From Candidatus Iainarchaeum sp. (GTDB taxonomy: Archaea > Iainarchaeota > Iainarchaeia > Iainarchaeales > DTGL01), in assembly GCA_038736825.1 (NCBI GenBank), contig JAVYME010000043.1, positions 1-7,949 of the forward strand: a stretch of DNA of 7,949 bases, read 5' to 3'. Positions within the stretch are counted from its first letter, which is position 1. Each line of letters opens with the position of its first letter. Shown here in pieces: positions 1-7,949 of this stretch. Below the pieces are notes generated by a model. That model did not search any database. It was not told the DNA's origin and was given only the letters and a program-made list of their open reading frames with translations. A program made the position numbers and the translations under genes.

Positions 1-1832
1 AAAAAATATTGCTTGCTCATGCTCCAACCGGTCTTGGAAAAACCGCTGCAGTGTTATGCCCTTCCCTGACTTTTGCCTTGGAGGAAGGCAAAACCGTTTT
101 TTTCCTCACTCCAAAGATTTCCCAGCACGAAATTGCAGTGCAACTAGTGAAAGACTTGAACAAAAAGTTTGGCTTGCAAATTAAGGGCACTGACTTGGTT
201 GGAAGGAAATTCATGTGCTCTGATCCATATCTCTCTGAAGCAGACTCTGGTTCTTTTTATGAATTGTGCAAAAAGCGCAGGGAAAAAGAGGAATGCGAGT
301 TTTTTGCAAACATTGTCGGTTTTGATTCAAGGCAAAGGGAGATTGCAAGGCTTTACCAGGGCGAACTCAAAAGCAAGCATTCTGGAATATGGTCGCATTT
401 GGAGTTAAAGGAATGGTGTGAAAAGGCCTGCAATGGAAAAGGGTTTTGCGCTTACGAGTCAGCAATGTTGTTGGCAAGGGATTCAAGCATTATAATTGCA
501 GACTATTATCACTTGTTCAATCCCAGCATTCAATCAGTTATCCTTCAAAAAGCGAAGAAAAAACTGGAAAATTCCATTGTGGTTGTCGATGAAGCGCACA
601 ATCTTCCAGAAAGGGTGAGGGCTCTCTTGAGCAGCACTGTTTCGGTTTTTTCAATTGAAAAGGCAATGGAGGAATTAGAACGGCTTGGGCGAGAAGAGCA
701 CATTGAATCCCTTAAAGAGATAAGAAAGGCAGTAAAGGGCATTGCAAGGGAAAAACTTTCACAGAAAAACGAAGCAATTGTTTCAGAGGAAGCCCTTTCA
801 AAAAAAATAGAATCCGTTGGCGAAATCGAGGATATTGCAATCGAGTTCAGGGAACTGGGAGCAGAGTTTGTACAGTCTTTTCCCCAAGGGCGCTCCCACT
901 TAATATTGATTGCAAATTTTTTGGAAAAATGGCGCGAGCGAGAGCCTTCCTTTGTCCGCATTGTGCGAAAAAAGGAGAAAGGGGTTTCGCTTCAAGTGAA
1001 AGCACTGGATCCAGCAATTGTTTCAAGAAAGGTTTTTGAGGAAGCGCATTCCGCTGTTTTGATGAGTGGCACTCTATTGCCTGCAAAAATGTATGCAGAC
1101 CTTTTAGGAATTCCAAGTGAAAGGGCGGTAATGAAGGAATATTCTTCGCCTTTTCCCAAGGAAAACAAGCTTTCACTTGTTGTTCCTTCAGTGACTACAA
1201 AGTTTTCAGAGCGCAATCCAAGAGAGTTTGAAAAAATTGCTGAAATTGTTTCCAGCATTTCAAACAATATTCCGGGAAACAGTGCAGTGTTTTTTCCTTC
1301 CTTTGCAGTGCTTGAAGCAATTGCGCCCCTATTAGAGGGACGCCTTTCAAGGCCTGTGTTGAAGCAGAATGCTGAAATGGGTTCTTTTGAAAAGGCAGAG
1401 CTTTTGAAGAGGTTCAGGCAGCAAGGAAAGGGTTTTGGGGCAGTGCTTTTGGCAGTGGCTGCTGGTTCTTTTGCTGAAGGAATTGATTATTTGGGCGAGC
1501 AATTGCTGGGAGCAATAATTGTCGGCATTCCCTTGAATGAAATGGATTTGGAAACCCAGTGCCTTATAGATTATTATCAGGAAAAGTTTGGCTCTGGATG
1601 GCATTATGGTTATCTCTATCCAGCGGTTGCTCGTGCAATTCAGGCTTCAGGAAGGGTTATAAGGGATCGCTCTGACAGGGGAGTGGTGGTTTTTTTGGAC
1701 AAAAGGTATACTTGGAATAATTACAAAAAGTGTTTTCCAAGGGATTTTGAGGGAATTGTGACAGAGAATCCTGCAAAAACAGTGGCAAGGTTTTGGCAGG
1801 AGCGCTTTGAATTCAAGCCGGTTGTCGCTTGA
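1..1832 (+). CDS. xpd: XPD/Rad3-family (DinG-like) superfamily-2 DNA helicase with Fe-S cluster domain; 5' end cut by the window edge
   Basis: The reading frame is open back to nt 3 (..KI-LLAHAPTGLGKTAA), so the TTG at 9 is probably not the real start. Walker A is APTGLGKT (nt ~21-44) and the DEAH box is VVVDEAHNL (DEAH = 588-599). Clustered cysteines lie between motifs I and II (FMCSD, ELCKK, EECEF, WCEKACNGKGFCAYE), as expected for the 4Fe-4S domain. Also present: ADYYHLF, SGTL, GSFAEGIDY (motif V) and QASGRVIRD (motif VI). Stop TGA at 1830-1832. Confidence 0.9.
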   Translation, partial: KILLAHAPTGLGKTAAVLCPSLTFALEEGKTVFFLTPKISQHEIAVQLVKDLNKKFGLQIKGTDLVGRKFMCSDPYLSEADSGSFYELCKKRREKEECEFFANIVGFDSRQREIARLYQGELKSKHSGIWSHLELKEWCEKACNGKGFCAYESAMLLARDSSIIIADYYHLFNPSIQSVILQKAKKKLENSIVVVDEAHNLPERVRALLSSTVSVFSIEKAMEELERLGREEHIESLKEIRKAVKGIAREKLSQKNEAIVSEEALSKKIESVGEIEDIAIEFRELGAEFVQSFPQGRSHLILIANFLEKWREREPSFVRIVRKKEKGVSLQVKALDPAIVSRKVFEEAHSAVLMSGTLLPAKMYADLLGIPSERAVMKEYSSPFPKENKLSLVVPSVTTKFSERNPREFEKIAEIVSSISNNIPGNSAVFFPSFAVLEAIAPLLEGRLSRPVLKQNAEMGSFEKAELLKRFRQQGKGFGAVLLAVAAGSFAEGIDYLGEQLLGAIIVGIPLNEMDLETQCLIDYYQEKFGSGWHYGYLYPAVARAIQASGRVIRDRSDRGVVVFLDKRYTWNNYKKCFPRDFEGIVTENPAKTVARFWQERFEFKPVVA

Positions 1833-2192: not shown

Positions 2193-3116
2193 TTAAACTT
2201 TTTTTTTGTTTGCCAGAAACCAGTAAGCGCTTTCAGCGGCAATTGCGCCCTGTCCTGCTGCAACTATTGCTTGCGCAAATGTTCCAGTAATGTCGCCTGC
2301 TGCAAAAACGCCTTCAATGCTTGTGTTCATTTGCATGCCTGTTTCAATATAGCCTTTTTCTGAAAGCCTGCAACCAAGCATTTTTGCAATCCCGTTTTCA
2401 GGCAGCAATCCAATGTATACAAAAACGCCGTCAACTGCAATCTCTTTTTCTTTTCCGCTAACCCTGTCCCTGTATTTCAAGCCATTGGCTTTTTCGCTTC
2501 CAGTTATTTCAAAAACCTCAGCGTTTAATATTGTTTGCACTTTTTTTTCCTTTAATTTTTCTTCATAAATTTTATCACATTTCAGTTTGTCTCCGAATTC
2601 CAGCAAGAAAACCTTTTTGCAAATGCCTGCAAGGAACAATGCGTTCATTGCCCCAGAATTGCCTCCACCGATTACTGCAACTGTTTTTTCCCTGTAAAGC
2701 GGGCCATCACAAGTGGCACAATAATGGATTCCTTTTCCTTCAAGTTTTTCTGCGTTTTTTGCTTTTAGTTTTTTGTGGGTTGCACCTGAAGCAATGATTA
2801 TTGCTTTTGCCAGAATTTTTTCTCCATTGCCTGTTTCAAGCTCAAAGCCGTTCAATGTTTTTTTTGCTTTTTTTATTTCAATTCCTTCCAGTATTTTTCC
2901 CCCGATTCCTTCAAAGTGTTCTTGCATTTTTTGCGCCAATTCAAACCCTTTTATGGATTTAATGCCGGGATAGTTTTCAACCAGCACTGAATCAACAATG
3001 TTGCCGCCTGCAATTTTTTTTTCAAAAACCAGCACTTTCAATCCTTTTCTCAAAGCATAAATGCCTGCAGTTATTCCAGCAGGGCCTGCTCCTATTATTG
3101 CAATGTCTGTTTCCAT
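2193..3116 (-). CDS. trxB: thioredoxin-disulfide reductase, low-molecular-weight TrxR family (atypical pyridine-nucleotide site)
   Basis: FAD-binding DIAIIGAGPAG at the N-terminus. Redox-active CATC in HYCATCDG (codons at nt 2709-2720, minus strand). Second dinucleotide fold VAVIGGGNSG, and C-terminal GVFAAGD FAD motif. The 307-aa length fits the family. AGGTG SD sits 5 nt upstream of the ATG (AAAGGTGCAAAAATG on the minus strand). Confidence 0.93.
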   Translation of the reverse strand: METDIAIIGAGPAGITAGIYALRKGLKVLVFEKKIAGGNIVDSVLVENYPGIKSIKGFELAQKMQEHFEGIGGKILEGIEIKKAKKTLNGFELETGNGEKILAKAIIIASGATHKKLKAKNAEKLEGKGIHYCATCDGPLYREKTVAVIGGGNSGAMNALFLAGICKKVFLLEFGDKLKCDKIYEEKLKEKKVQTILNAEVFEITGSEKANGLKYRDRVSGKEKEIAVDGVFVYIGLLPENGIAKMLGCRLSEKGYIETGMQMNTSIEGVFAAGDITGTFAQAIVAAGQGAIAAESAYWFLANKKKV

Positions 3117-3313
3117 TTTTGCACCTTTTAATAATATTAAAGAAAACTTTAATAATGGCTAATTTTATTACAAAAGGCAGTGTGAAAGGTTTATATATTG
3201 GGAAACCATTAATATATGCTGAAATTTTGCCTTTTGGCTTCAAAAACAGCTTAAAGGAATGAATAAAAGGAGTTAGTGTATAAATTAATTCGCTCTTATG
3301 AAGGGGTGATTTT
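3117..3313. promoter_or_regulatory. divergent AT-rich intergenic region with candidate archaeal-type promoters for trxB (-) and the four-gene cluster (+)
   Basis: On the + strand, purine-rich GAAAGG (BRE-like) sits directly upstream of TTTATATA (3190-3197), a near-consensus archaeal TATA box. A second TATAAATTAA lies at ~3280-3289. On the minus strand, TAATAAAATTA (complement of ~3160-3170) lies ~45-55 nt upstream of the trxB ATG. No transcription start data, so assignment is tentative. Confidence 0.4.
3303..3310 (+). promoter_or_regulatory. Shine-Dalgarno-like site (GGGGTGAT) for the TTG-initiated gene at 3314
   Basis: AAGGGGTGAT, then a 3-nt spacer, then TTG at 3314. It is complementary to the conserved 16S 3' tail (anti-SD ...GGAUCACCUCC). 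Confidence 0.55.
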
Positions 3314-3889
3314 TTGGATAAGCGCTGGTTTAACCTTATAATTTTGACTGCAATAGTTTTGGCAGGAATTATTGCTTATTTTTTCTTTTTTCAAGCGCCA
3401 TCTTTCTCGCAAAGGCTTGAAGCAATGAAAGCCTCTTGGGTGAAAGCTGGCTTGGAAGCAAAACCCCTTCACTTGTCCTATGACAGGCTAAACCGCCTTT
3501 CACAAAAAGAATTATCCGATTTAAAGGCAGGCTTGGTTCAATTCACTGAATCTGAAAAAAATTCTGCTGCAAGAGAATTAGGCGAAGCATATGTTTCCCT
3601 TATAGACATCAGCATTTACAGGCAAAAAATGCTTGAAGTGCAGGAAGAGATTTCAAAAGCCGAAAACCCTTGCACTGTACTGCCAAAATACGATTTGTTG
3701 ACAGAATACAAGGAATCGCTTTTGGCTTCAACAGAAGAATATTTATCCAAAGTGGATTCCTTTGTTTCAAGCAATCCAGAGGCTGCAAGAGAAGCGCAAA
3801 TACAAGCAGGAAGCGGTGCTGAAGAACTAGCCTCCTCGGTTGCCAGGCATAAAACCCTTGTAGCACAATTAAAGGAGGCATGCAAATGA
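3314..3889 (+). CDS. N-terminally membrane-anchored, predominantly helical protein of unknown function (module 1, small subunit; paralog of 6113..6682)
   Basis: TTG start with SD. Single N-terminal hydrophobic helix WFNLIILTAIVLAGIIAYFFFF followed by QAPSF. The rest is charged and Ala/Leu/Glu/Lys-rich. It is collinear with the 6113..6682 product: FFQAPSF at residues 25-31 in both, C120 vs C119 in a C..LP.Y..L block, and C190 vs C188 near the C-terminus. Confidence 0.8.
   Translation: MDKRWFNLIILTAIVLAGIIAYFFFFQAPSFSQRLEAMKASWVKAGLEAKPLHLSYDRLNRLSQKELSDLKAGLVQFTESEKNSAARELGEAYVSLIDISIYRQKMLEVQEEISKAENPCTVLPKYDLLTEYKESLLASTEEYLSKVDSFVSSNPEAAREAQIQAGSGAEELASSVARHKTLVAQLKEACK
3874..3878 (+). promoter_or_regulatory. 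Shine-Dalgarno GGAGG embedded in the last codons of the upstream gene, serving the ATG at 3886
   Basis: AAG GAG GCA TGC AAA TGA. GGAGG ends 7 nt before ATG 3886-3888, which overlaps the stop TGA 3887-3889 (ATGA). Confidence 0.7.
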
Positions 3890-6087
3890 ACACCAAAAGC
3901 CTTCTCGCAATCCTTTTCCTTTCCCTGCTTTTCTCTTCAACAAACGCTTTTGTTTTGAGAACCACAGCCGGCTATCAAATCTTGGACAGAGATGCTCTTT
4001 ACAATGATTCAGTGCAACGTGATGATACAAGACTGGCGCAAGGAACGCTTTTCGCAAAAGCAGGCACAAAACTTTACACTTTGAATCCAAGGCATAAAGC
4101 AGACGGAAAAGCCTTACTGGAAACAACCCCAAAAGTTTTAGTGAATAAAAGCCTTTTGGGAATAAGCGGCACAGGACAGTATTCCTTTGAATTGGATGCA
4201 ATAGAACCAACAACCTATTTGCGCGGTCCAGCTGACCAAATAAGAGGCAGGTGCTCTGACCGCTGTGACGGGCCAAAAGTAAGCCTTACAGTAAAAGATG
4301 ACGGGGGTTACACTCAAGTGGCAGCAAGCAATTTCATCGAGGAAGGCAGAGAAATGATTGCCGGCGATTACAAGTACAAAATCACCAAAATTATTGTTCC
4401 AGAATACAAGGAAACCTGGCTTAAGGTTGGAGGCGACAACCAAACATGGTATTTGGTTTTAGGGCAAACCGGCGTAATGTCTGGACTAACAGAGGCTACA
4501 CCAAAAGACATTATAGTGGAGTTTTGCGTTGCCAAAAGGAATGGCGCTGGCTGGAGCAATTGCTATTATGACAATTCTGGTTCACTAACAGGAGAACTGA
4601 CAATAGGGGAAAGCACTCCAGGCACTGGAATGCAACCGCCTGGCTCGCCAACAGAAATCGGGCAACAAATAGAAGAAGCAACACAAACCGCAGCAGAACA
4701 AGCTGAAGCAGCACAAGGCTCAACACAAGTCACAAGTGGAAAAATTCCCAGCGAAGATGAAGAGCTTGCCAAGTGCACTGCAGACCTTCAAAAGAGTGAA
4801 ACCCTGCTTGTTGCAAAAACAAGGTTCAAGTACGATAGGGCAATAGGTTATCCGCCAGGTGAAACAGGATGGAATGAATTTGTAGCTGATGAAATCCAAG
4901 AAAAAAAGAGTTTCAAGATTGACATGACGGGAGTTGGTTATAGAGATGCTGGCAAAGGGCTTTACGAGTTCTATCTTCAAGGCTTCCATCCAGAACTAAA
5001 AAAATTTGATGGAACTATATCCAAAAAACCAGCATTTGCAACATATGGAACAAGGGATGGCGCGCAAATTTTATGCGGGCATTTCATTGGATTGAACGAA
5101 GAAATGAGTTGCAGTCCAAGAGACGAAATAAAGCCACAGGATGTTATTTACAAGATTTACAAATTCGAAGGGCCTTTTTTCGAACAACCAAGTGAAGGAA
5201 AAAGAGAAATTTTAATGAAAGGGCCACACTGTTATGATGTATGGGCTTATTATATGGTTAAATTCAGGATGGATACAACGCCAAGTGGAGGCCACGAGTG
5301 GTGGATGAAAACAGTTGAAGAAGTGCAAAACTATGCTGAAAGCAAGAAAAGAGGCTATAATCTCATTGTAAATGTTGTTGAAGAGATTGAATACAATTCT
5401 CAACCGATTTCAGGCGCAAAAGTGGTTGCAACAACCACTATTGAAGGAGAAAGTGTTAGGATTGAAGCCAATACAGGTGAGGACGGAAAAGCCAAGCTTG
5501 TGGTTCCAATAAATGCAACAATAACGGTTGTTGCAAGCAAAACAAATTATGTGGATTCAAGCATTATTGTACCACCATTTTCCAGTACAAAAGAGGTAAC
5601 AATTGCCCTAAAAAGGAATCTTTACAATTTAAAGGTTGCCTTTGCAAGGGATGACTTTTGGACTTTGTACTACAGGTATGCACCACAACACCATGGTGAT
5701 CCAACAACACCGGGCGTTAACACTGCAGACAAAGCGTTCCTTGACTCGCATGTTCCAACAAAGGAACACTCAGACTATGTTTACAGTGTTGCAGACAAGT
5801 TTTTGGCTTTAAAAACAAAGCCTTGCGATGATCCTTCTGGAGAAACAATTCCAAGCAAGGTTAGAACCGATTTTCAGCACCTAACAATCAAGGACACCCG
5901 CCAAGGCCATGAAAATCACGATGTAAGGCTTTACAATGTCCTTGAATTTGAAAACTTGAAACTGGACAGCTATTATTATGCTTGTTATTCTCGCACAATT
6001 GACGGAGTGAAAAAAACAAGAGAGATAAAATGGCATATCAAAATTAATGGAGTGCTTGAAGAGCCAGATCCGCCTAGAGATATTTGA
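3886..6087 (+). CDS. large secreted protein of unknown function (module 1, large subunit) with an internal carboxypeptidase-regulatory-like beta-sandwich segment
   Basis: The longest ORF begins at ATG 3880, but that start is only 1 nt from the GGAGG. ATG 3886 has a 7-nt spacer and an ATGA overlap, so it is preferred. Signal peptide MNTKSLLAILFLSLLFSSTNA|FV. Ten cysteines in the mature part (an even number, compatible with disulfides). A Pro/Gly/Thr/Gln/Glu/Ala-rich linker (GESTPGTGMQPPGSPTEIGQQIEEATQTAAEQAEAAQGSTQ, nt ~4609-4730) separates the N- and C-terminal regions. Residues NLIVNVVEE..QPISGAKVVA..TGEDGKAKLVVP..ATITVVASKTNYVD..VTIALKR (nt ~5359-5616) fit the CarboxypepD_reg / Ig-like pattern. 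No TM anchor at the C-terminus. Confidence 0.85.
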   Translation: MNTKSLLAILFLSLLFSSTNAFVLRTTAGYQILDRDALYNDSVQRDDTRLAQGTLFAKAGTKLYTLNPRHKADGKALLETTPKVLVNKSLLGISGTGQYSFELDAIEPTTYLRGPADQIRGRCSDRCDGPKVSLTVKDDGGYTQVAASNFIEEGREMIAGDYKYKITKIIVPEYKETWLKVGGDNQTWYLVLGQTGVMSGLTEATPKDIIVEFCVAKRNGAGWSNCYYDNSGSLTGELTIGESTPGTGMQPPGSPTEIGQQIEEATQTAAEQAEAAQGSTQVTSGKIPSEDEELAKCTADLQKSETLLVAKTRFKYDRAIGYPPGETGWNEFVADEIQEKKSFKIDMTGVGYRDAGKGLYEFYLQGFHPELKKFDGTISKKPAFATYGTRDGAQILCGHFIGLNEEMSCSPRDEIKPQDVIYKIYKFEGPFFEQPSEGKREILMKGPHCYDVWAYYMVKFRMDTTPSGGHEWWMKTVEEVQNYAESKKRGYNLIVNVVEEIEYNSQPISGAKVVATTTIEGESVRIEANTGEDGKAKLVVPINATITVVASKTNYVDSSIIVPPFSSTKEVTIALKRNLYNLKVAFARDDFWTLYYRYAPQHHGDPTTPGVNTADKAFLDSHVPTKEHSDYVYSVADKFLALKTKPCDDPSGETIPSKVRTDFQHLTIKDTRQGHENHDVRLYNVLEFENLKLDSYYYACYSRTIDGVKKTREIKWHIKINGVLEEPDPPRDI

Positions 6088-6112: not shown

Positions 6113-6682
6113 ATGAAAAAAAACCAAAAAATCGCTTTAATCGCAATAATCCTTTTGGTTGTTATAATCGCGGTTTACCTGCTTTTCTTTCAAGCGCCAT
6201 CCTTTGAAAAAGAATACGAGCGCATGAGCCTTGCATGGAAAAACAATGGGTTGAAAGAGGAAAGATTGCACGCTTCAGAGACTGTTTTTTCCCTTGATTC
6301 AGAGAAAATCGAGGACATTCGCTCCGAAATATCCTCCTTTTCTTCTTCTCCGAATCCCGCAATCAAGGACCTTTCAACAACCTATCTTTTGTTCCTTGAA
6401 AGCGCAAAAATAGCCTCCGAGATTTCCAGTATGAGCGAAACCCTTGCTGGTTCTCAGCAAGGCCTATGCGAAAGCCTTCCAGCTTACGAACGCCTTGGCA
6501 AAAAATTTTCAGAACTTGAAGAAAAAAAGGAAGCCTACCTTAAAGCCACAAACGCTTTTGTTTCAAAATATCCAAAGGAAGCTGAATCCATTTCCCTGAA
6601 AGCAAACACTGCCGGTTTGCAGGGAGCTTCTTCAAGCAAATTCGTTGAACTGCTTGAAGTCGCCAAGGAGGTGTGCTCATGA
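6113..6682 (+). CDS. N-terminally membrane-anchored helical protein of unknown function (module 2, small subunit; paralog of 3314..3889)
   Basis: ATG start preceded by GGAGCGTGAT (6100-6109). TM helix IALIAIILLVVIIAVYLLFF followed by QAPSF. Shares the W..(x)GL....LH.S, C.(x)LP.Y..L, YL......FVS..P..A and KE.C-terminus blocks with the 3314..3889 product. Confidence 0.85.
   Translation: MKKNQKIALIAIILLVVIIAVYLLFFQAPSFEKEYERMSLAWKNNGLKEERLHASETVFSLDSEKIEDIRSEISSFSSSPNPAIKDLSTTYLLFLESAKIASEISSMSETLAGSQQGLCESLPAYERLGKKFSELEEKKEAYLKATNAFVSKYPKEAESISLKANTAGLQGASSSKFVELLEVAKEVCS
6667..6671 (+). promoter_or_regulatory. Shine-Dalgarno GGAGG(TG) embedded in the last codons of the upstream gene, serving the ATG at 6679
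   Basis: AAG GAG GTG TGC TCA TGA. GGAGG ends 7 nt before ATG 6679-6681, which overlaps the stop TGA 6680-6682. The geometry is the same as at 3874-3889. Confidence 0.7.
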
Positions 6683-7949
6683 AAAAAGCCTTTTTTGCAA
6701 TAATCGCAATCATGTTGCTGGCATTCACAGGACAGGCATTTGCGTACGACAAGCTGGATGCACTTGTAGACCAAGGAAGGATAAAAATAAACATACTAAT
6801 TGATCCAACCCCTTGGGATCAAAAGGTTTCATATCAGTGGAACAATGTTGTGCTTCAAACACCAGCGCAAATAAACGTGAACGATCCTGCTGTTTCAGCC
6901 ACGGGTTCTTTTTCATTTTACAGGGCATCACATTCTGTTGCACGTAAAACCACGCCAGACCGCTCTGAACTTAACCCAAGGCACAATATTGGCTTAGAAT
7001 ATTATTCGCTCAAATATGAAATACAGCCAAATTTTGTTAGAGTTGAGCCAGTGCCAGGCAGAAGCCAAGACACCCAATTCATTTACAAATTCACTATATT
7101 AAAAGGGGTTGGCGCAAACCTTACCCAATGCCATTCAACTGGCGAATTCAAGCTTTTACTTCCAGACACTCCAACTGAAGAGGACGCTCCTGCTAGAGGA
7201 ACAGAAGACGAAATGTTGCCAGGCTCAAGGGGATATAAGTATGTGACAGTTGATGCCTTAAGCCAGTGCGGCATAAGATTCCAAGTTTACAGAACCCATT
7301 CTTGGTTTGGTGACCATGTTTGGTTTCTAAGGTTTGATTTTTCAAGAAATGAAATAATAAACTATTTTTTGCCACAACTCTTGCAAAACACCGCTGATGC
7401 CTCGCTAAAACAATCCATTACTGAAATAATCGGAGCACAATTACCACCAACTAAGACTTGCACTCCAAAAACTTGTGCTGAAATGGGTTGGGAGTGCGGT
7501 TCTGGTGTTGAGGACAGGTGCAATACAACAATTCAATGCCAAGCTTGCCCGAGTGGCAAGACTTGCAACAATTCAATCCATAAATGTGAGACATTCAGCC
7601 CACCCTGTGTTCCAAAAACCTGTTCAGAGCTTGGTTGGCAGTGTGGCACTGGTGATGATGGTTGCGGTGGAACCTTGAATTGCGGAGATTGCCCGACAGG
7701 CCAAAAATGCAATATTGGAACCCACAAATGTTGCACTCCAAAAACTTGTGCTGAAATGGGTTGGGAGTGCGGTTCCGGCATTGAGTCTGGATGCAATAAT
7801 ACAATTAATTGCGGTAATTGCACTGGTGGCAAAACATGTAATACTGAAACTCACAAATGCGTAAGCACTTGTGTTCCAAAAACCTGTTCAGAGCTTGGTT
7901 GGCAGTGTGGCACTGGTGATGATGGTTGCGGTGGAACCTTGAATTGCGG
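6679..7949 (+). CDS. secreted protein (module 2, large subunit) with a unique N-terminal domain and a C-terminal array of 8-Cys repeats; 3' end runs off the window
   Basis: Not in the supplied ORF track because it has no stop in the window. I translated frame 1 from 6679 by hand and found no stop through 7949 (423 full codons). Signal peptide MKKAFFAIIAIMLLAFTGQAFA|YDK. A ~235-aa N-terminal region is followed from residue ~261 by repeated modules CxPKTCxExGWxCGxG....C...(I/L)xCxxCxxGxxCxxxxHKC. Confidence 0.85.
   Translation, partial: MKKAFFAIIAIMLLAFTGQAFAYDKLDALVDQGRIKINILIDPTPWDQKVSYQWNNVVLQTPAQINVNDPAVSATGSFSFYRASHSVARKTTPDRSELNPRHNIGLEYYSLKYEIQPNFVRVEPVPGRSQDTQFIYKFTILKGVGANLTQCHSTGEFKLLLPDTPTEEDAPARGTEDEMLPGSRGYKYVTVDALSQCGIRFQVYRTHSWFGDHVWFLRFDFSRNEIINYFLPQLLQNTADASLKQSITEIIGAQLPPTKTCTPKTCAEMGWECGSGVEDRCNTTIQCQACPSGKTCNNSIHKCETFSPPCVPKTCSELGWQCGTGDDGCGGTLNCGDCPTGQKCNIGTHKCCTPKTCAEMGWECGSGIESGCNNTINCGNCTGGKTCNTETHKCVSTCVPKTCSELGWQCGTGDDGCGGTLNC
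7459..7949 (+). repeat. in-frame tandem coding repeat: alternating A/B types of an 8-cysteine ~42-49-aa module (A1 7459-7605, B1 7606-7731, A2 7732-7869, B2 7870->7949)
   Basis: 7606-7685 and 7870-7949 are identical over all 80 nt (offset 264 nt). 7458-7502 and 7731-7775 are identical over 45 nt (offset 273 nt) and then diverge. Each module has eight Cys at conserved spacing. Confidence 0.92.

What the first reader, a model, noticed from the sequence alone, without database searches (positions are those of the whole stretch)
6679..7949. Long open-ended ORF absent from the ORF track encodes a signal-peptide protein ending in an 8-Cys repeat array
Hand translation of frame 1 from ATG 6679 gives more than 423 codons without a stop. 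The ORF track omits it only because it is unterminated in the window, and lists instead four spurious ORFs across 7475-7854. From residue ~261 the protein is built of modules such as CVPKTCSELGWQCGTGDDGCGGTLNCGDCPTGQKCNIGTHKC. From memory, the TC..LG..CG...DGCGG.L.CG.C pattern resembles cysteine-rich repeats in poorly annotated secreted proteins of myxobacteria and other environmental taxa, but I cannot verify that here. The A-type modules carry N-x-S/T sequons (NTT, NNS, NNT, NCT) and the B-type modules carry none. That hints at alternating glycosylated and unglycosylated units on a stalk-like, disulfide-knotted extracellular region.
Basis: partly seen in the sequence, partly recalled or inferred. 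Interest (0 to 1): 0.7.

Follow-up and report, generated by a model that had tools for sequence, protein, structure and literature searches.

The report
Truncated DPANN surface protein with Cys-repeat spacer
This is a real but cut-off gene for a secreted surface protein of a tiny DPANN archaeon, whose cysteine-rich repeats are a common but unnamed extracellular building block; the less ordinary part is its rare N-terminal domain and the conserved gene cluster around it.

Summary
Frame 1 from ATG 6679 is open for 423 codons to the window end. It starts with a Sec-type signal peptide and ends in four 8-Cys modules (A1-B1-A2-B2).

The window is a whole 7,949-bp contig of a 'Candidatus Diapherotrites archaeon' MAG. 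It stops inside an 80-nt exact repeat (B1 = B2), so the gene is cut short and the module count is unknown.

The module is not new as a sequence class. A module HMM finds 743 copies in 120 homologs, many from Myxococcota, fused to many different domains. It has no passing Pfam, NCBIfam or PDB match, so it is common but unnamed.

The glycosylation-alternation idea is not supported (4 sequons against about 2 expected, P≈0.11, and only one independent A/B comparison).

- The N-terminal domain has only four true relatives among 1.84 billion representative proteins.
- The three relatives whose contigs were fetched (L008 only partly) lie in the same cluster, with a small TM protein before each secreted protein. 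All four carry a different Cys/Asp-rich or non-repeat spacer, mostly MopE or TSP3 repeats, and then a conserved C-terminal domain.
- The array is therefore most likely a swappable spacer between two conserved domains.

Function is inferred, not shown. Interest is moderate.

The parts
6665..6673 (+). Shine-Dalgarno-like AAGGAGGTG, 7 nt (from GGAGG) upstream of the start codon
   Evidence: Read directly from the sequence.
6679..6744 (+). Start codon (ATGA overlap with the stop of ORF 6113-6682) and Sec-type signal peptide, residues 1-22, predicted cleavage AFA|YD
   Evidence: Equivalent signal peptides in P0122, P0123, P0125 and P0126 end just before the conserved N-domain.
6745..7458 (+). Rare N-terminal domain (residues 23-260): β-rich with a C-terminal helical pair and two family-invariant Cys (residues 151 and 197)
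   Evidence: The word-indexed search found only the protein itself. Exhaustive phmmer found four true relatives at E 2e-13 to 1.4e-5. Alignment A2. AF2 model pLDDT 77.5, pTM 0.79. No significant match in PDB or BFVD.
7459..7605 (+). Module A1 (residues 261-309): 8 Cys, sequons NTT and NNS, plus a short ETFSPP linker
7606..7731 (+). Module B1 (residues 310-351): 8 Cys, canonical CxPKTC...DGCGGTLNCGxC form
7732..7869 (+). Module A2 (residues 352-397): 8 Cys, sequons NNT and NCT; 77% nt identity to A1
7870..7949 (+). Module B2, truncated (residues 398-423 plus 2 nt): 100% identical to 7606-7685 up to the last base of the contig, which points to an assembly break inside a repeat
   Evidence: The contig length equals the window length, 7,949 bp.
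6113..6682 (+). Upstream partner gene 'small-B': 189 aa, N-terminal TM anchor, helical ectodomain with two invariant Cys; its stop overlaps the target's start
   Evidence: Orthologs sit directly upstream of the target ortholog in L006, L007 and L008.
3314..3889 (+). Paralogous 'small-A' TM protein (191 aa), first gene of the conserved cluster
   Evidence: 27% identity to small-B, E 6e-15. Orthologs 50-57% identical in L006 and L007.
3880..6087 (+). 735-aa secreted protein with a CarboxypepD_reg-like β-sandwich, partner of small-A, second gene of the cluster
   Evidence: Orthologs 33-45% identical.

Best explanation
The ORF is the 5' part of a gene for a secreted, cell-surface-associated modular protein of a DPANN (Diapherotrites) archaeon.

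Proposed architecture:
- Sec signal peptide.
- A rare, fast-evolving β-rich N-terminal domain.
- A variable-length spacer of disulfide-rich repeats.
- Beyond the contig end (inferred), a conserved C-terminal domain of about 130 aa.

In this genome the spacer is built from a widespread, uncurated 8-Cys extracellular module (CxPxTC-x3-G-x2-CG-x3-DGCG-x2-L-x-CGxC-x2-G-x2-C-xn-C). The same module is used in many bacterial secreted proteins, many of them from Myxococcota. In the four known relatives the same position holds MopE-type or TSP3 repeats, or a non-repeat insert.

The array most likely acts as a compact, semi-rigid spacer that holds the N-domain away from the C-domain or the cell.

The gene is the fourth in a conserved cluster: small TM protein, then a ~750-aa secreted protein, then a small TM protein, then this protein, then a further Cys-rich secreted protein. 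Each secreted protein's start overlaps or abuts the stop of the preceding small TM gene.

I infer that each small protein (N-in, C-out, helical, with one conserved Cys pair) is made together with its secreted partner and anchors or assembles it at the membrane. The assembly would serve envelope or attachment functions.

Shown: the ORF, the modules, the homologies, the synteny and the truncation by the contig end.

Inferred: secretion, disulfides, the spacer role, the missing C-domain, the pairing and the surface or adhesion role.
For: ORF, start site and signal peptide:
- Open frame, ribosome-binding site, ATGA overlap and signal peptide.
- Contig identity and 'partial' annotation.
- The contig ends within an 80-nt exact repeat.

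Module:
- 310 homologs match only the repeat part.
- The module HMM recovers 743 modules in 120 proteins, with Cys columns 90-99% conserved.
- Arrays lie N-terminal, central or C-terminal to many unrelated domains such as Hint, M10 peptidase, PG-binding, CBM2 and PKD. That is how a generic spacer or scaffold module behaves.
- AF2 gives pLDDT 92.5 per module but pTM 0.54 overall: well-defined beads with uncertain mutual orientation.

Family and architecture:
- Four true relatives were found by exhaustive phmmer.
- Their spacers are PF11617 and TSP_3 repeats.
- Their C-domain is conserved.

Synteny:
- L006 and L007 show the same gene order next to the same TrxR gene.
- L008, a short contig, shows only the 3' part of the ~750-aa gene, then small-B, the target ortholog and the downstream gene.
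- Identities: TrxR 65-78%, small-A 50-57%, the large protein 29-45%, small-B 35-46%, target N-domain 25-27%. The target is the fastest-diverging gene in the cluster, as expected for an exposed surface protein.
- In 8 of 8 small-TM/secreted pairs the start and stop overlap or abut.
- The small TM family has two invariant Cys in its ectodomain.
- The full-length relatives have no TM or sorting signal of their own. This is consistent with needing a partner for anchoring.
Against: - No function is demonstrated for any domain. Neither the N-domain nor the module has a significant fold match, so 'adhesion/envelope' rests on context alone.
- The C-domain of this particular protein is unseen.
- The pairing of small TM and secreted proteins is inferred only from gene order and overlap.
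- Disulfide formation could not be checked, because no model coordinates were available. DPANN are often anaerobes with no recognised extracytoplasmic oxidase.
- Only four relatives exist and their taxonomy is unknown. Calling the family 'DPANN' rests on one MAG label, shared synteny and similar GC (0.41-0.47).
- Relatives use metal- or Ca-binding motif repeats in the spacer, so the region may bind ions rather than act purely as a structure.
Confidence: 0.6

Rival explanations
1. One reading: a novel stalk in which N-glycosylated A modules alternate with unglycosylated B modules.
For: All four repeat-region sequons lie in A modules and none in B. Archaea do N-glycosylate surface proteins at N-x-S/T (established knowledge).
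Against: - 4 sequons against 1.96 expected by composition, P = 0.107.
- A1/A2 and B1/B2 are duplicates, so there is only one independent comparison.
- Sequons are not conserved in the A-like modules of P0065 (SAT, NTA, STT, NTT).
- The module is common, not novel.
- No AglB or glycosylation genes are on the contig.
Confidence: 0.1
2. Chimeric or mis-assembled contig: the Cys-repeat array is bacterial (for example myxobacterial) DNA wrongly joined to an archaeal contig, or the A-B-A-B order is a graph artefact.
For: The contig ends in an 80-nt exact repeat. Nearly all named module carriers are bacteria. The only named genome loci recovered were a Myxococcota MAG and a Planctomycetaceae MAG.
Against: - The repeat region has GC 0.47 against 0.41-0.42 for the rest. 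Three fetched bacterial-type module contigs are 0.58-0.66.
- The N-domain-to-module junction is in frame within one ORF.
- All four relatives have a spacer at exactly this position, Cys/Asp-rich repeats in three and a non-repeat insert in P0126.
- A1 and A2 differ (77%), so they are distinct copies.
- Other low-GC contigs carry the module too (L003, GC 0.42).
- Copy number beyond A1-B-A2-B does remain uncertain.
Confidence: 0.07
3. Polymorphic-toxin or effector delivery protein: the repeat array is the stalk of a secreted toxin whose variable C-terminal toxin domain lies beyond the contig end. Many myxobacterial proteins have this layout, with the module fused to Hint or pretoxin domains.
For: Many module carriers have PF07591 (pretoxin Hint) or PF01079 domains.
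Against: - The four N-domain relatives end in one conserved C-domain with no Hint or toxin hit.
- No immunity-like gene pattern is seen.
- No PADLOC or PHROG hits.
- The downstream genes in relatives are further secreted Cys-rich proteins.
Confidence: 0.05
4. The spacer is primarily an ion-binding (Ca2+/Cu/Zn) region rather than a structural stalk, with the Cys or Asp residues coordinating metal.
For: - Relatives use PF11617 'putative metal-binding motif' and TSP type-3 (Ca-binding) repeats at the same position.
- The module keeps a conserved Asp (81%) before the DGCG core.
Against: - The window's modules do not match PF11617 or any metal-binding model, even at E up to 10.
- Eight conserved Cys in about 42 aa of a secreted protein is the usual signature of four disulfides (established knowledge).
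- The AF2 model is compact and confident without ligands.
Confidence: 0.12

Closest known systems
Unnamed 8-Cys 'CxPxTC...DGCGG...CGxC' tandem module of bacterial (largely Myxococcota) secreted proteins
   Same: Same Cys spacing and conserved residues. B modules are near-consensus. Four-module stretches are 45-58% identical to hits such as P0008 and P0002. The modules form tandem arrays behind a signal peptide.
   Different: The host here is a DPANN archaeon with about 42% GC. The A-type variant replaces DGCGG with E-x-x-C-N-x-T. The array sits between two lineage-specific domains rather than next to known enzymes or Hint domains.
TIGR04201 Myxo_Cys_RPT (the Cys-rich repeats of Myxococcus TraA; PMC3325183)
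   Same: An extracellular Cys-rich tandem repeat acting as a stalk between a recognition domain and the cell anchor. There is a weak hit to the second hairpin of the B module (15.7 bits, E 0.012).
   Different: The hit is below the curated cut-off of 25 bits. TIGR04201 is a 22-position unit, not a 42-aa 8-Cys module. There is no PA14 domain and no MYXO-CTERM.
TIGR02232 / DUF4215 'Myxococcus cysteine-rich repeat'
   Same: It is a Cys-rich repeat in myxobacterial and other secreted proteins.
   Different: No hit at all in Pfam or NCBIfam, even at E up to 10.
EGF-like / laminin-type EGF (8-Cys) / TNFR cysteine-rich domains
   Same: Small two-hairpin disulfide-rich beads strung into rod-like spacers. 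They are the top, non-significant, Foldseek neighbours.
   Different: Best E is 0.17 and TM is below 0.45. There are no Pfam EGF or laminin hits. This is analogy, not membership.
MopE-type putative metal-binding motif repeats (PF11617) and TSP type-3 repeats
   Same: They occupy the same position, between the N-domain and the C-domain, in the protein's own relatives P0122, P0123 and P0125.
   Different: They are unrelated in sequence to the window's modules, and there is no PF11617 hit in the window protein.
Two-component archaeal envelope proteins (for example Sulfolobales SlaA/SlaB: a large secreted subunit plus a membrane-anchored helical stalk subunit)
   Same: The idea of a secreted protein co-encoded with a small membrane-anchored helical partner. 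This comparison rests on my own knowledge and is an analogy only.
   Different: There is no sequence or fold similarity. The anchor here is N-terminal, not C-terminal. There are several different pairs in tandem. No abundance or lattice data exist.

Membership tests
Unnamed 8-Cys CxPxTC/DGCGG module family | Conserved Cys framework and motif C-x-P-x-T-C-x3-G-x2-C-G-x3-D-G-C-G-x2-L-x-C-G-x-C-x2-G-x2-C | tested here: met
   Alignment A1 has 27 invariant columns (23 Cys, 4 Gly). The HMM consensus from 743 modules fits B1/B2 fully and A1/A2 in the Cys framework.
Unnamed 8-Cys CxPxTC/DGCGG module family | Significant sequence homology to other members | tested here: met
   E 4e-72 to 1e-18 for 120 listed hits, restricted to the repeat part.
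Unnamed 8-Cys CxPxTC/DGCGG module family | Tandem arrays in exported proteins | tested here: met
   Four tandem modules behind a signal peptide. The median hit has 4 copies by regex and about 6 by HMM.
Unnamed 8-Cys CxPxTC/DGCGG module family | Four intramodule disulfides | not testable with these tools
   The AF2 model is confident but no coordinates are returned. Cys loss is too rare for covariation analysis.
TIGR04201 Myxo_Cys_RPT (TraA-type) | Score at or above the curated cut-off (25 bits) | tested here: not met
   15.7 bits on the B module and 13.7 bits on the whole array.
TIGR02232 / PF13948 DUF4215 Myxococcus Cys-rich repeat | HMM match | tested here: not met
   No hit at E up to 10.
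EGF-like / laminin EGF | HMM match or significant fold match | tested here: not met
   No Pfam hit. Foldseek best E is 0.17-2 with TM below 0.45.
Rare N-domain/C-domain surface-protein family (P0122, P0123, P0125, P0126) | Homologous N-terminal domain directly after the signal peptide | tested here: met
   phmmer E 2e-13, 2.5e-12, 6.6e-8 and 1.4e-5 over nearly the whole domain. There are 18 invariant columns, including two Cys.
Rare N-domain/C-domain surface-protein family (P0122, P0123, P0125, P0126) | Conserved gene neighbourhood (small-A, ~750-aa protein, small-B, target) | tested here: met
   L006 and L007 show the full order; L008 shows only its 3' part.
Rare N-domain/C-domain surface-protein family (P0122, P0123, P0125, P0126) | Variable spacer between the N-domain and the C-domain | tested here: met
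   8-Cys modules here. MopE or TSP3 repeats in P0122, P0123 and P0125, and a non-repeat insert in P0126.
Rare N-domain/C-domain surface-protein family (P0122, P0123, P0125, P0126) | Conserved C-terminal domain of about 130 aa | not testable with these tools
   The contig ends inside the repeats. The C-domain is present in all four relatives.
Rusticalin-type cysteine-rich repeats (PMC7379824) | Eukaryote-dominated repeat with its own Gly/Pro pattern | not tested
   Judged from the paper's description only: 374 of 382 proteins are eukaryotic, and the Gly/Pro positions differ. No sequence was available for comparison.

The most novel reading that the evidence does not exclude
The window shows part of a lineage-specific DPANN cell-surface apparatus. 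It would be built from tandem gene pairs, each encoding a small N-anchored helical membrane protein and a translationally coupled secreted partner. In this fastest-evolving member, the stalk between two novel-fold domains is exchanged as a cassette between genomes (8-Cys module, MopE, TSP3). Such a system could be the attachment or recognition device these episymbionts use on their hosts, with the 8-Cys cassette acquired from bacteria.
Probability: 0.2. Interest if true: 0.6.

Novelty: new variant of a known kind. Interest (0 to 1): 0.38.

Why it matters
DPANN archaea depend on contact with host cells, yet few of their surface proteins are understood.

- The locus provides a defined, syntenic set of candidate envelope or attachment genes for one DPANN lineage.
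- It gives a clear example of spacer-cassette swapping between otherwise orthologous surface proteins.
- It shows that a very abundant 8-Cys extracellular module still lacks a passing Pfam or NCBIfam model and a solved structure. There are hundreds of proteins in this search alone, and a confident AF2 model. A curated model would annotate many 'hypothetical' secreted proteins.

In itself, another Cys-repeat surface protein is not surprising.

Tried and rejected
Sequence and structure libraries:
- Pfam, NCBIfam, PHROGs and PADLOC on the target gave no family hit; the only weak hit was TIGR04201 on the repeat part at a lax E-value.
- PDB by sequence gave nothing.
- The small-TM family profile against PDB gave only noise.
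- Foldseek of both models against PDB, and of the N-domain against BFVD, gave nothing significant.

Homology searches:
- Word-indexed searches with the N-domain and with small-B returned only the query itself.

Locus scans:
- The N-domain alignment A2 and module alignment A1 were too divergent for the tool.
- P0122+P0126 found nothing in genome contigs or metagenome contigs.
- The ~750-aa neighbour alignment found nothing in metagenome contigs or viral contigs.
- The module query in genome contigs gave only one Myxococcota and one Planctomycetaceae MAG.

Literature:
- Searches for cysteine-rich repeat plus myxobacteria, DPANN plus cysteine-rich, Diapherotrites plus surface, and the motif string DGCGG found no description of this module.
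- The rusticalin CRR lead was followed and dropped as a different, eukaryotic repeat.

Other:
- Inferring disulfide pairs from pairwise Cys loss failed. 555 of 624 spanning modules keep all seven scored Cys.
- P0124 from the exhaustive search was rejected as a repeat-inflated false positive.
- DNA for the P0038 context was unavailable.
Full report
**1. The observation**

Translating 6679-7949 in frame 1 gives 423 sense codons and no stop. The six-frame ORF list omits it only because it runs off the window. It lists instead 7475-7678 (+, another frame) and 7533-7832, 7595-7804 and 7624-7854 (all on the - strand) inside it.

At about 42% GC, an open frame of this length has a chance probability near 5e-12 by my own arithmetic.

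The ATG at 6679 overlaps the TGA (6680-6682) of the preceding ORF 6113-6682. It lies 7 nt downstream of GGAGG within AAGGAGGTG (6665-6673).

The product begins MKKAFFAIIAIMLLAFTGQAFA|YDK, a textbook Sec signal peptide. No dedicated predictor was available, so I judged this by its features.

The window is the whole of a 7,949-bp contig of an NCBI MAG labelled 'Candidatus Diapherotrites archaeon'. There the same product is annotated as a partial hypothetical protein (P0001).

**2. The repeats**

From residue 261 the protein consists of four modules:

| Module | Residues | Nucleotides |
|---|---|---|
| A1 | 261-309 | 7459-7605 |
| B1 | 310-351 | 7606-7731 |
| A2 | 352-397 | 7732-7869 |
| B2 (truncated) | 398-423 | 7870-7947 |

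A1, B1 and A2 each have eight Cys; the truncated B2 has five.

At the DNA level A1 and A2 are 77% identical. B1 and B2 are 100% identical over 80 nt, and that identity runs to the very last base of the contig. This is the signature of an assembler stopping at an unresolved repeat. So the protein does not 'end in' the array. The contig does, and the true module count is unknown.

**3. The module is common but unnamed**

The full protein has 310 significant relatives in the 5.8-billion-protein collection. Nearly all cover only about 39% of the query, which is the repeat part.

Most of the hits that carry a source name are Myxococcales, Polyangiaceae, Labilithrix, Corallococcus or 'Deltaproteobacteria'. 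The hits carry unrelated partner domains, including pretoxin Hint, M10 peptidase, PG-binding, CBM2, PKD and DUF5648. None has a precomputed Pfam domain over the repeats themselves.

A module HMM iterated on the 120 listed proteins recovers 743 modules. The consensus is CxPxTC-x3-G-x2-CG-x3-DGCG-x2-L-x-CGxC-x2-G-x2-C, and seven Cys columns are 90-99% conserved. The eighth Cys lies in a loop of variable length.

Arrays occur N-terminally, centrally or C-terminally in the carriers.

Pfam, NCBIfam, PHROGs, PADLOC and PDB sequences give no passing hit. The only named-model signal is a sub-threshold match of TIGR04201, the TraA-type myxobacterial Cys repeat (PMC3325183). It matches the second hairpin of module B at 15.7 bits against a cut-off of 25. 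TIGR02232/DUF4215 does not match at all.

Literature searches found no description of the module. The rusticalin 'CRR' (PMC7379824) is a eukaryote-dominated repeat with a different Gly/Pro pattern.

The module is a member of a large, uncurated family, not a novelty.

**4. Structure of the array**

I predicted the structure of residues 259-423 with AF2, using a 36-sequence alignment of four-module stretches (A1). The model has mean pLDDT 92.5 but pTM 0.54. Each module is a short helix followed by two β-hairpins.

High local confidence with low global confidence fits compact beads whose mutual orientation is not fixed by the data. Linkers are 0-5 residues long (in B1 to A2 the sequence is ...HKC-CTPK...), so I infer a fairly stiff rod.

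Foldseek against PDB finds nothing significant. The best E is 0.17, and the neighbours are EGF-like domains of factors IX and X, LRP2 repeats and TNFR cysteine-rich domains, with TM below 0.45. This is resemblance by type, not membership.

Disulfide pairing could not be read, because no coordinates are returned. It could not be inferred from pairwise Cys loss either, because loss is too rare.

**5. Glycosylation alternation**

The four repeat-region sequons (N282 NTT, N297 NNS, N373 NNT, N380 NCT) are indeed all in A modules. There are three problems with reading this as a functional pattern:
- Shuffling the region's residues gives 1.96 ± 1.22 sequons, with P(≥4) = 0.107.
- A1/A2 and B1/B2 are duplicates, so this is a single independent contrast.
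- In the A-like modules of P0065 the corresponding position reads SAT, NTA, STT and NTT.

The idea is not excluded, but nothing here supports it.

**6. The N-terminal domain is the rare part**

Residues 1-260 find only themselves in the word-indexed search, even at E ≤ 10. An exhaustive phmmer of residues 23-260 against 1.84 billion representatives finds five proteins besides the query itself:
- P0122, E 2e-13
- P0123, E 2.5e-12
- P0125, E 6.6e-8, with two copies of the domain
- P0126, E 1.4e-5
- P0124, a repeat-inflated artefact

The alignment (A2) has 18 invariant columns, including two Cys (residues 151 and 197 of the window protein).

AF2 with this shallow alignment gives pLDDT 77.5 and pTM 0.79. 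The fold is β-rich with long antiparallel strands and two C-terminal helices. It has no significant match in PDB (best E 0.09, TM below 0.3) or in BFVD.

**7. Architecture of the family**

All four relatives have the same layout:
- a signal peptide, with cleavage directly before the conserved domain start;
- the N-domain;
- a variable spacer;
- a conserved C-terminal domain of about 130 aa (A6).

They have no TM segment or sorting signal of their own.

The spacers differ between members:
- P0122: MopE-type 'putative metal-binding motif' repeats (PF11617, 4.7e-10)
- P0123: the same motif (8.2e-22) plus TSP type-3
- P0125: a weak PF11617 signal
- P0126: a non-repeat insert

The window protein has the 8-Cys array at exactly this position. 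The simplest reading is that the array is an exchangeable spacer between two lineage-specific domains. The C-domain of this protein would then lie beyond the contig end.

**8. Conserved gene cluster**

The contigs of P0122, P0123 and P0125 are L006, L007 and L008, with GC 0.41, 0.47 and 0.43. L006 and L007 show the same order as the window: TrxR (- strand) ... small-A (182-191 aa) → ~750-aa secreted protein with one CarboxypepD_reg-like β-sandwich → small-B (165-189 aa) → target ortholog → a further secreted Cys-rich protein. L008 is short. It begins inside the ~750-aa gene and shows only small-B, the target ortholog and the downstream gene.

| Gene | Identity to the window's protein |
|---|---|
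| TrxR | 65-78% |
| small-A | 50-57% |
| large (~750-aa) protein | 29-45% |
| small-B | 35-46% |
| target N-domain | 25-27% |

The target is therefore the fastest-diverging gene of the cluster.

Small-A and small-B are paralogs (27% identity, E 6e-15). L006 has a third small gene followed by a 325-aa secreted protein.

The eight small proteins align with an N-terminal basic stretch plus a TM helix (cut off in L008) and a helical domain. Invariant residues are W, G, Y, F, P and two Cys (A4). I infer N-in/C-out topology with one ectodomain disulfide.

In all eight small/secreted gene pairs, the downstream start overlaps or abuts the small gene's stop. This suggests translational coupling and hence a stoichiometric partnership.

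Scans for more instances found none in 185,579 species-representative genomes, the JGI metagenomes or IMG/VR, within the limits of the pattern-based tool. By that measure the cluster is rare.

**9. Is the contig chimeric?**

The repeat region has GC 0.47 against 0.41 for the N-domain region and 0.42 for the contig. Module-bearing contigs L001 and L002 are 0.66 and 0.58, while L003, another carrier, is 0.42.

The N-domain-to-array junction is in frame, and the relatives have a spacer at the same point. I regard chimerism as unlikely. It is not formally excluded without reads.

**10. Mechanism, with shown and inferred steps separated**

Shown:
- an intact coding frame, a ribosome-binding site and overlap with the upstream gene;
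- an N-terminal signal-peptide-like sequence;
- four tandem modules that belong to a large homologous family;
- a rare N-domain family with a conserved cluster;
- spacer heterogeneity among orthologs;
- truncation by the contig end.

Inferred:
- export through Sec and cleavage at A22|Y23;
- four disulfides per module;
- the array acting as a semi-rigid spacer;
- a C-domain downstream;
- the small TM protein acting as membrane anchor or assembly partner;
- a role at the cell surface (envelope or attachment to a host), suggested by fast divergence, modular stalk swapping and the episymbiotic lifestyle known for cultivated DPANN.

**11. Verdict**

The repeat array itself is an ordinary member of a widespread, unnamed module family, and the glycosylation idea lacks support.

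Moderate interest comes from three things:
- the rare, novel-fold N-domain family;
- its conserved 'small TM protein + secreted protein' operon in DPANN-like genomes;
- the cassette-like exchange of the spacer.

Novelty: a new variant of a known kind (a modular secreted surface protein with a disulfide-rich spacer). Interest 0.38.

Noticed in passing
window 3314-3889 / 3880-6087 and 6113-6682 / 6679-7949; L006 1647-2231 / 2231-3208: There are tandem 'small N-anchored helical TM protein → secreted protein' gene pairs. In 8 of 8 pairs across the four contigs the start overlaps or abuts the preceding stop. The small proteins form one family with two invariant Cys and no database match.
   Followed up: partly
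window 3880-6087: This ORF encodes a 735-aa signal-peptide protein. Its only recognisable element is one CarboxypepD_reg-like β-sandwich (residues 506-577). That hit is sub-threshold here and scores higher, though still just under the Pfam cut-off, in the L006 and L007 orthologs. It is 33-45% identical to those orthologs and otherwise uncharacterised.
   Followed up: partly
window 4675-4717: A 15-nt tandem repeat (2.9 copies) encodes an acidic Ala/Glu/Gln-rich linker (…AAEQAEAAQ…) inside the 735-aa protein.
   Followed up: no
L006 8049-8555; L007 5682-6626; L008 3502-4518: The gene after the target ortholog is yet another secreted Cys-rich repeat protein, with sub-threshold Dicty_CTDC and ADAMTS_CR_2-like hits in L007 and L008. 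An equivalent gene is probably just beyond the window end.
   Followed up: partly
window 9-1832 (+) and 2193-3116 (-): An XPD/Rad3-type helicase ORF is open to the contig's 5' end, and there is a thioredoxin reductase gene. The TrxR gene is syntenic with the cluster in L006 and L007 (65-78% identity).
   Followed up: partly
P0065 (L001 905-2098): A protein on a high-GC (0.66) contig carries four A-type-like modules (…GWECGSGTESGCNTAIDCG…). The A variant is therefore not unique to the archaeal contig.
   Followed up: partly
P0124: This 415-aa protein, made of tandem ~62-aa repeats, scored E 8.8e-12 against residues 73-133 of the N-domain through four stretches. It looks like a repeat-inflated false positive.
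   Followed up: partly
P0125 (L008 1175-3493): This family member has two tandem copies of the N-domain before its spacer and C-domain.
   Followed up: no
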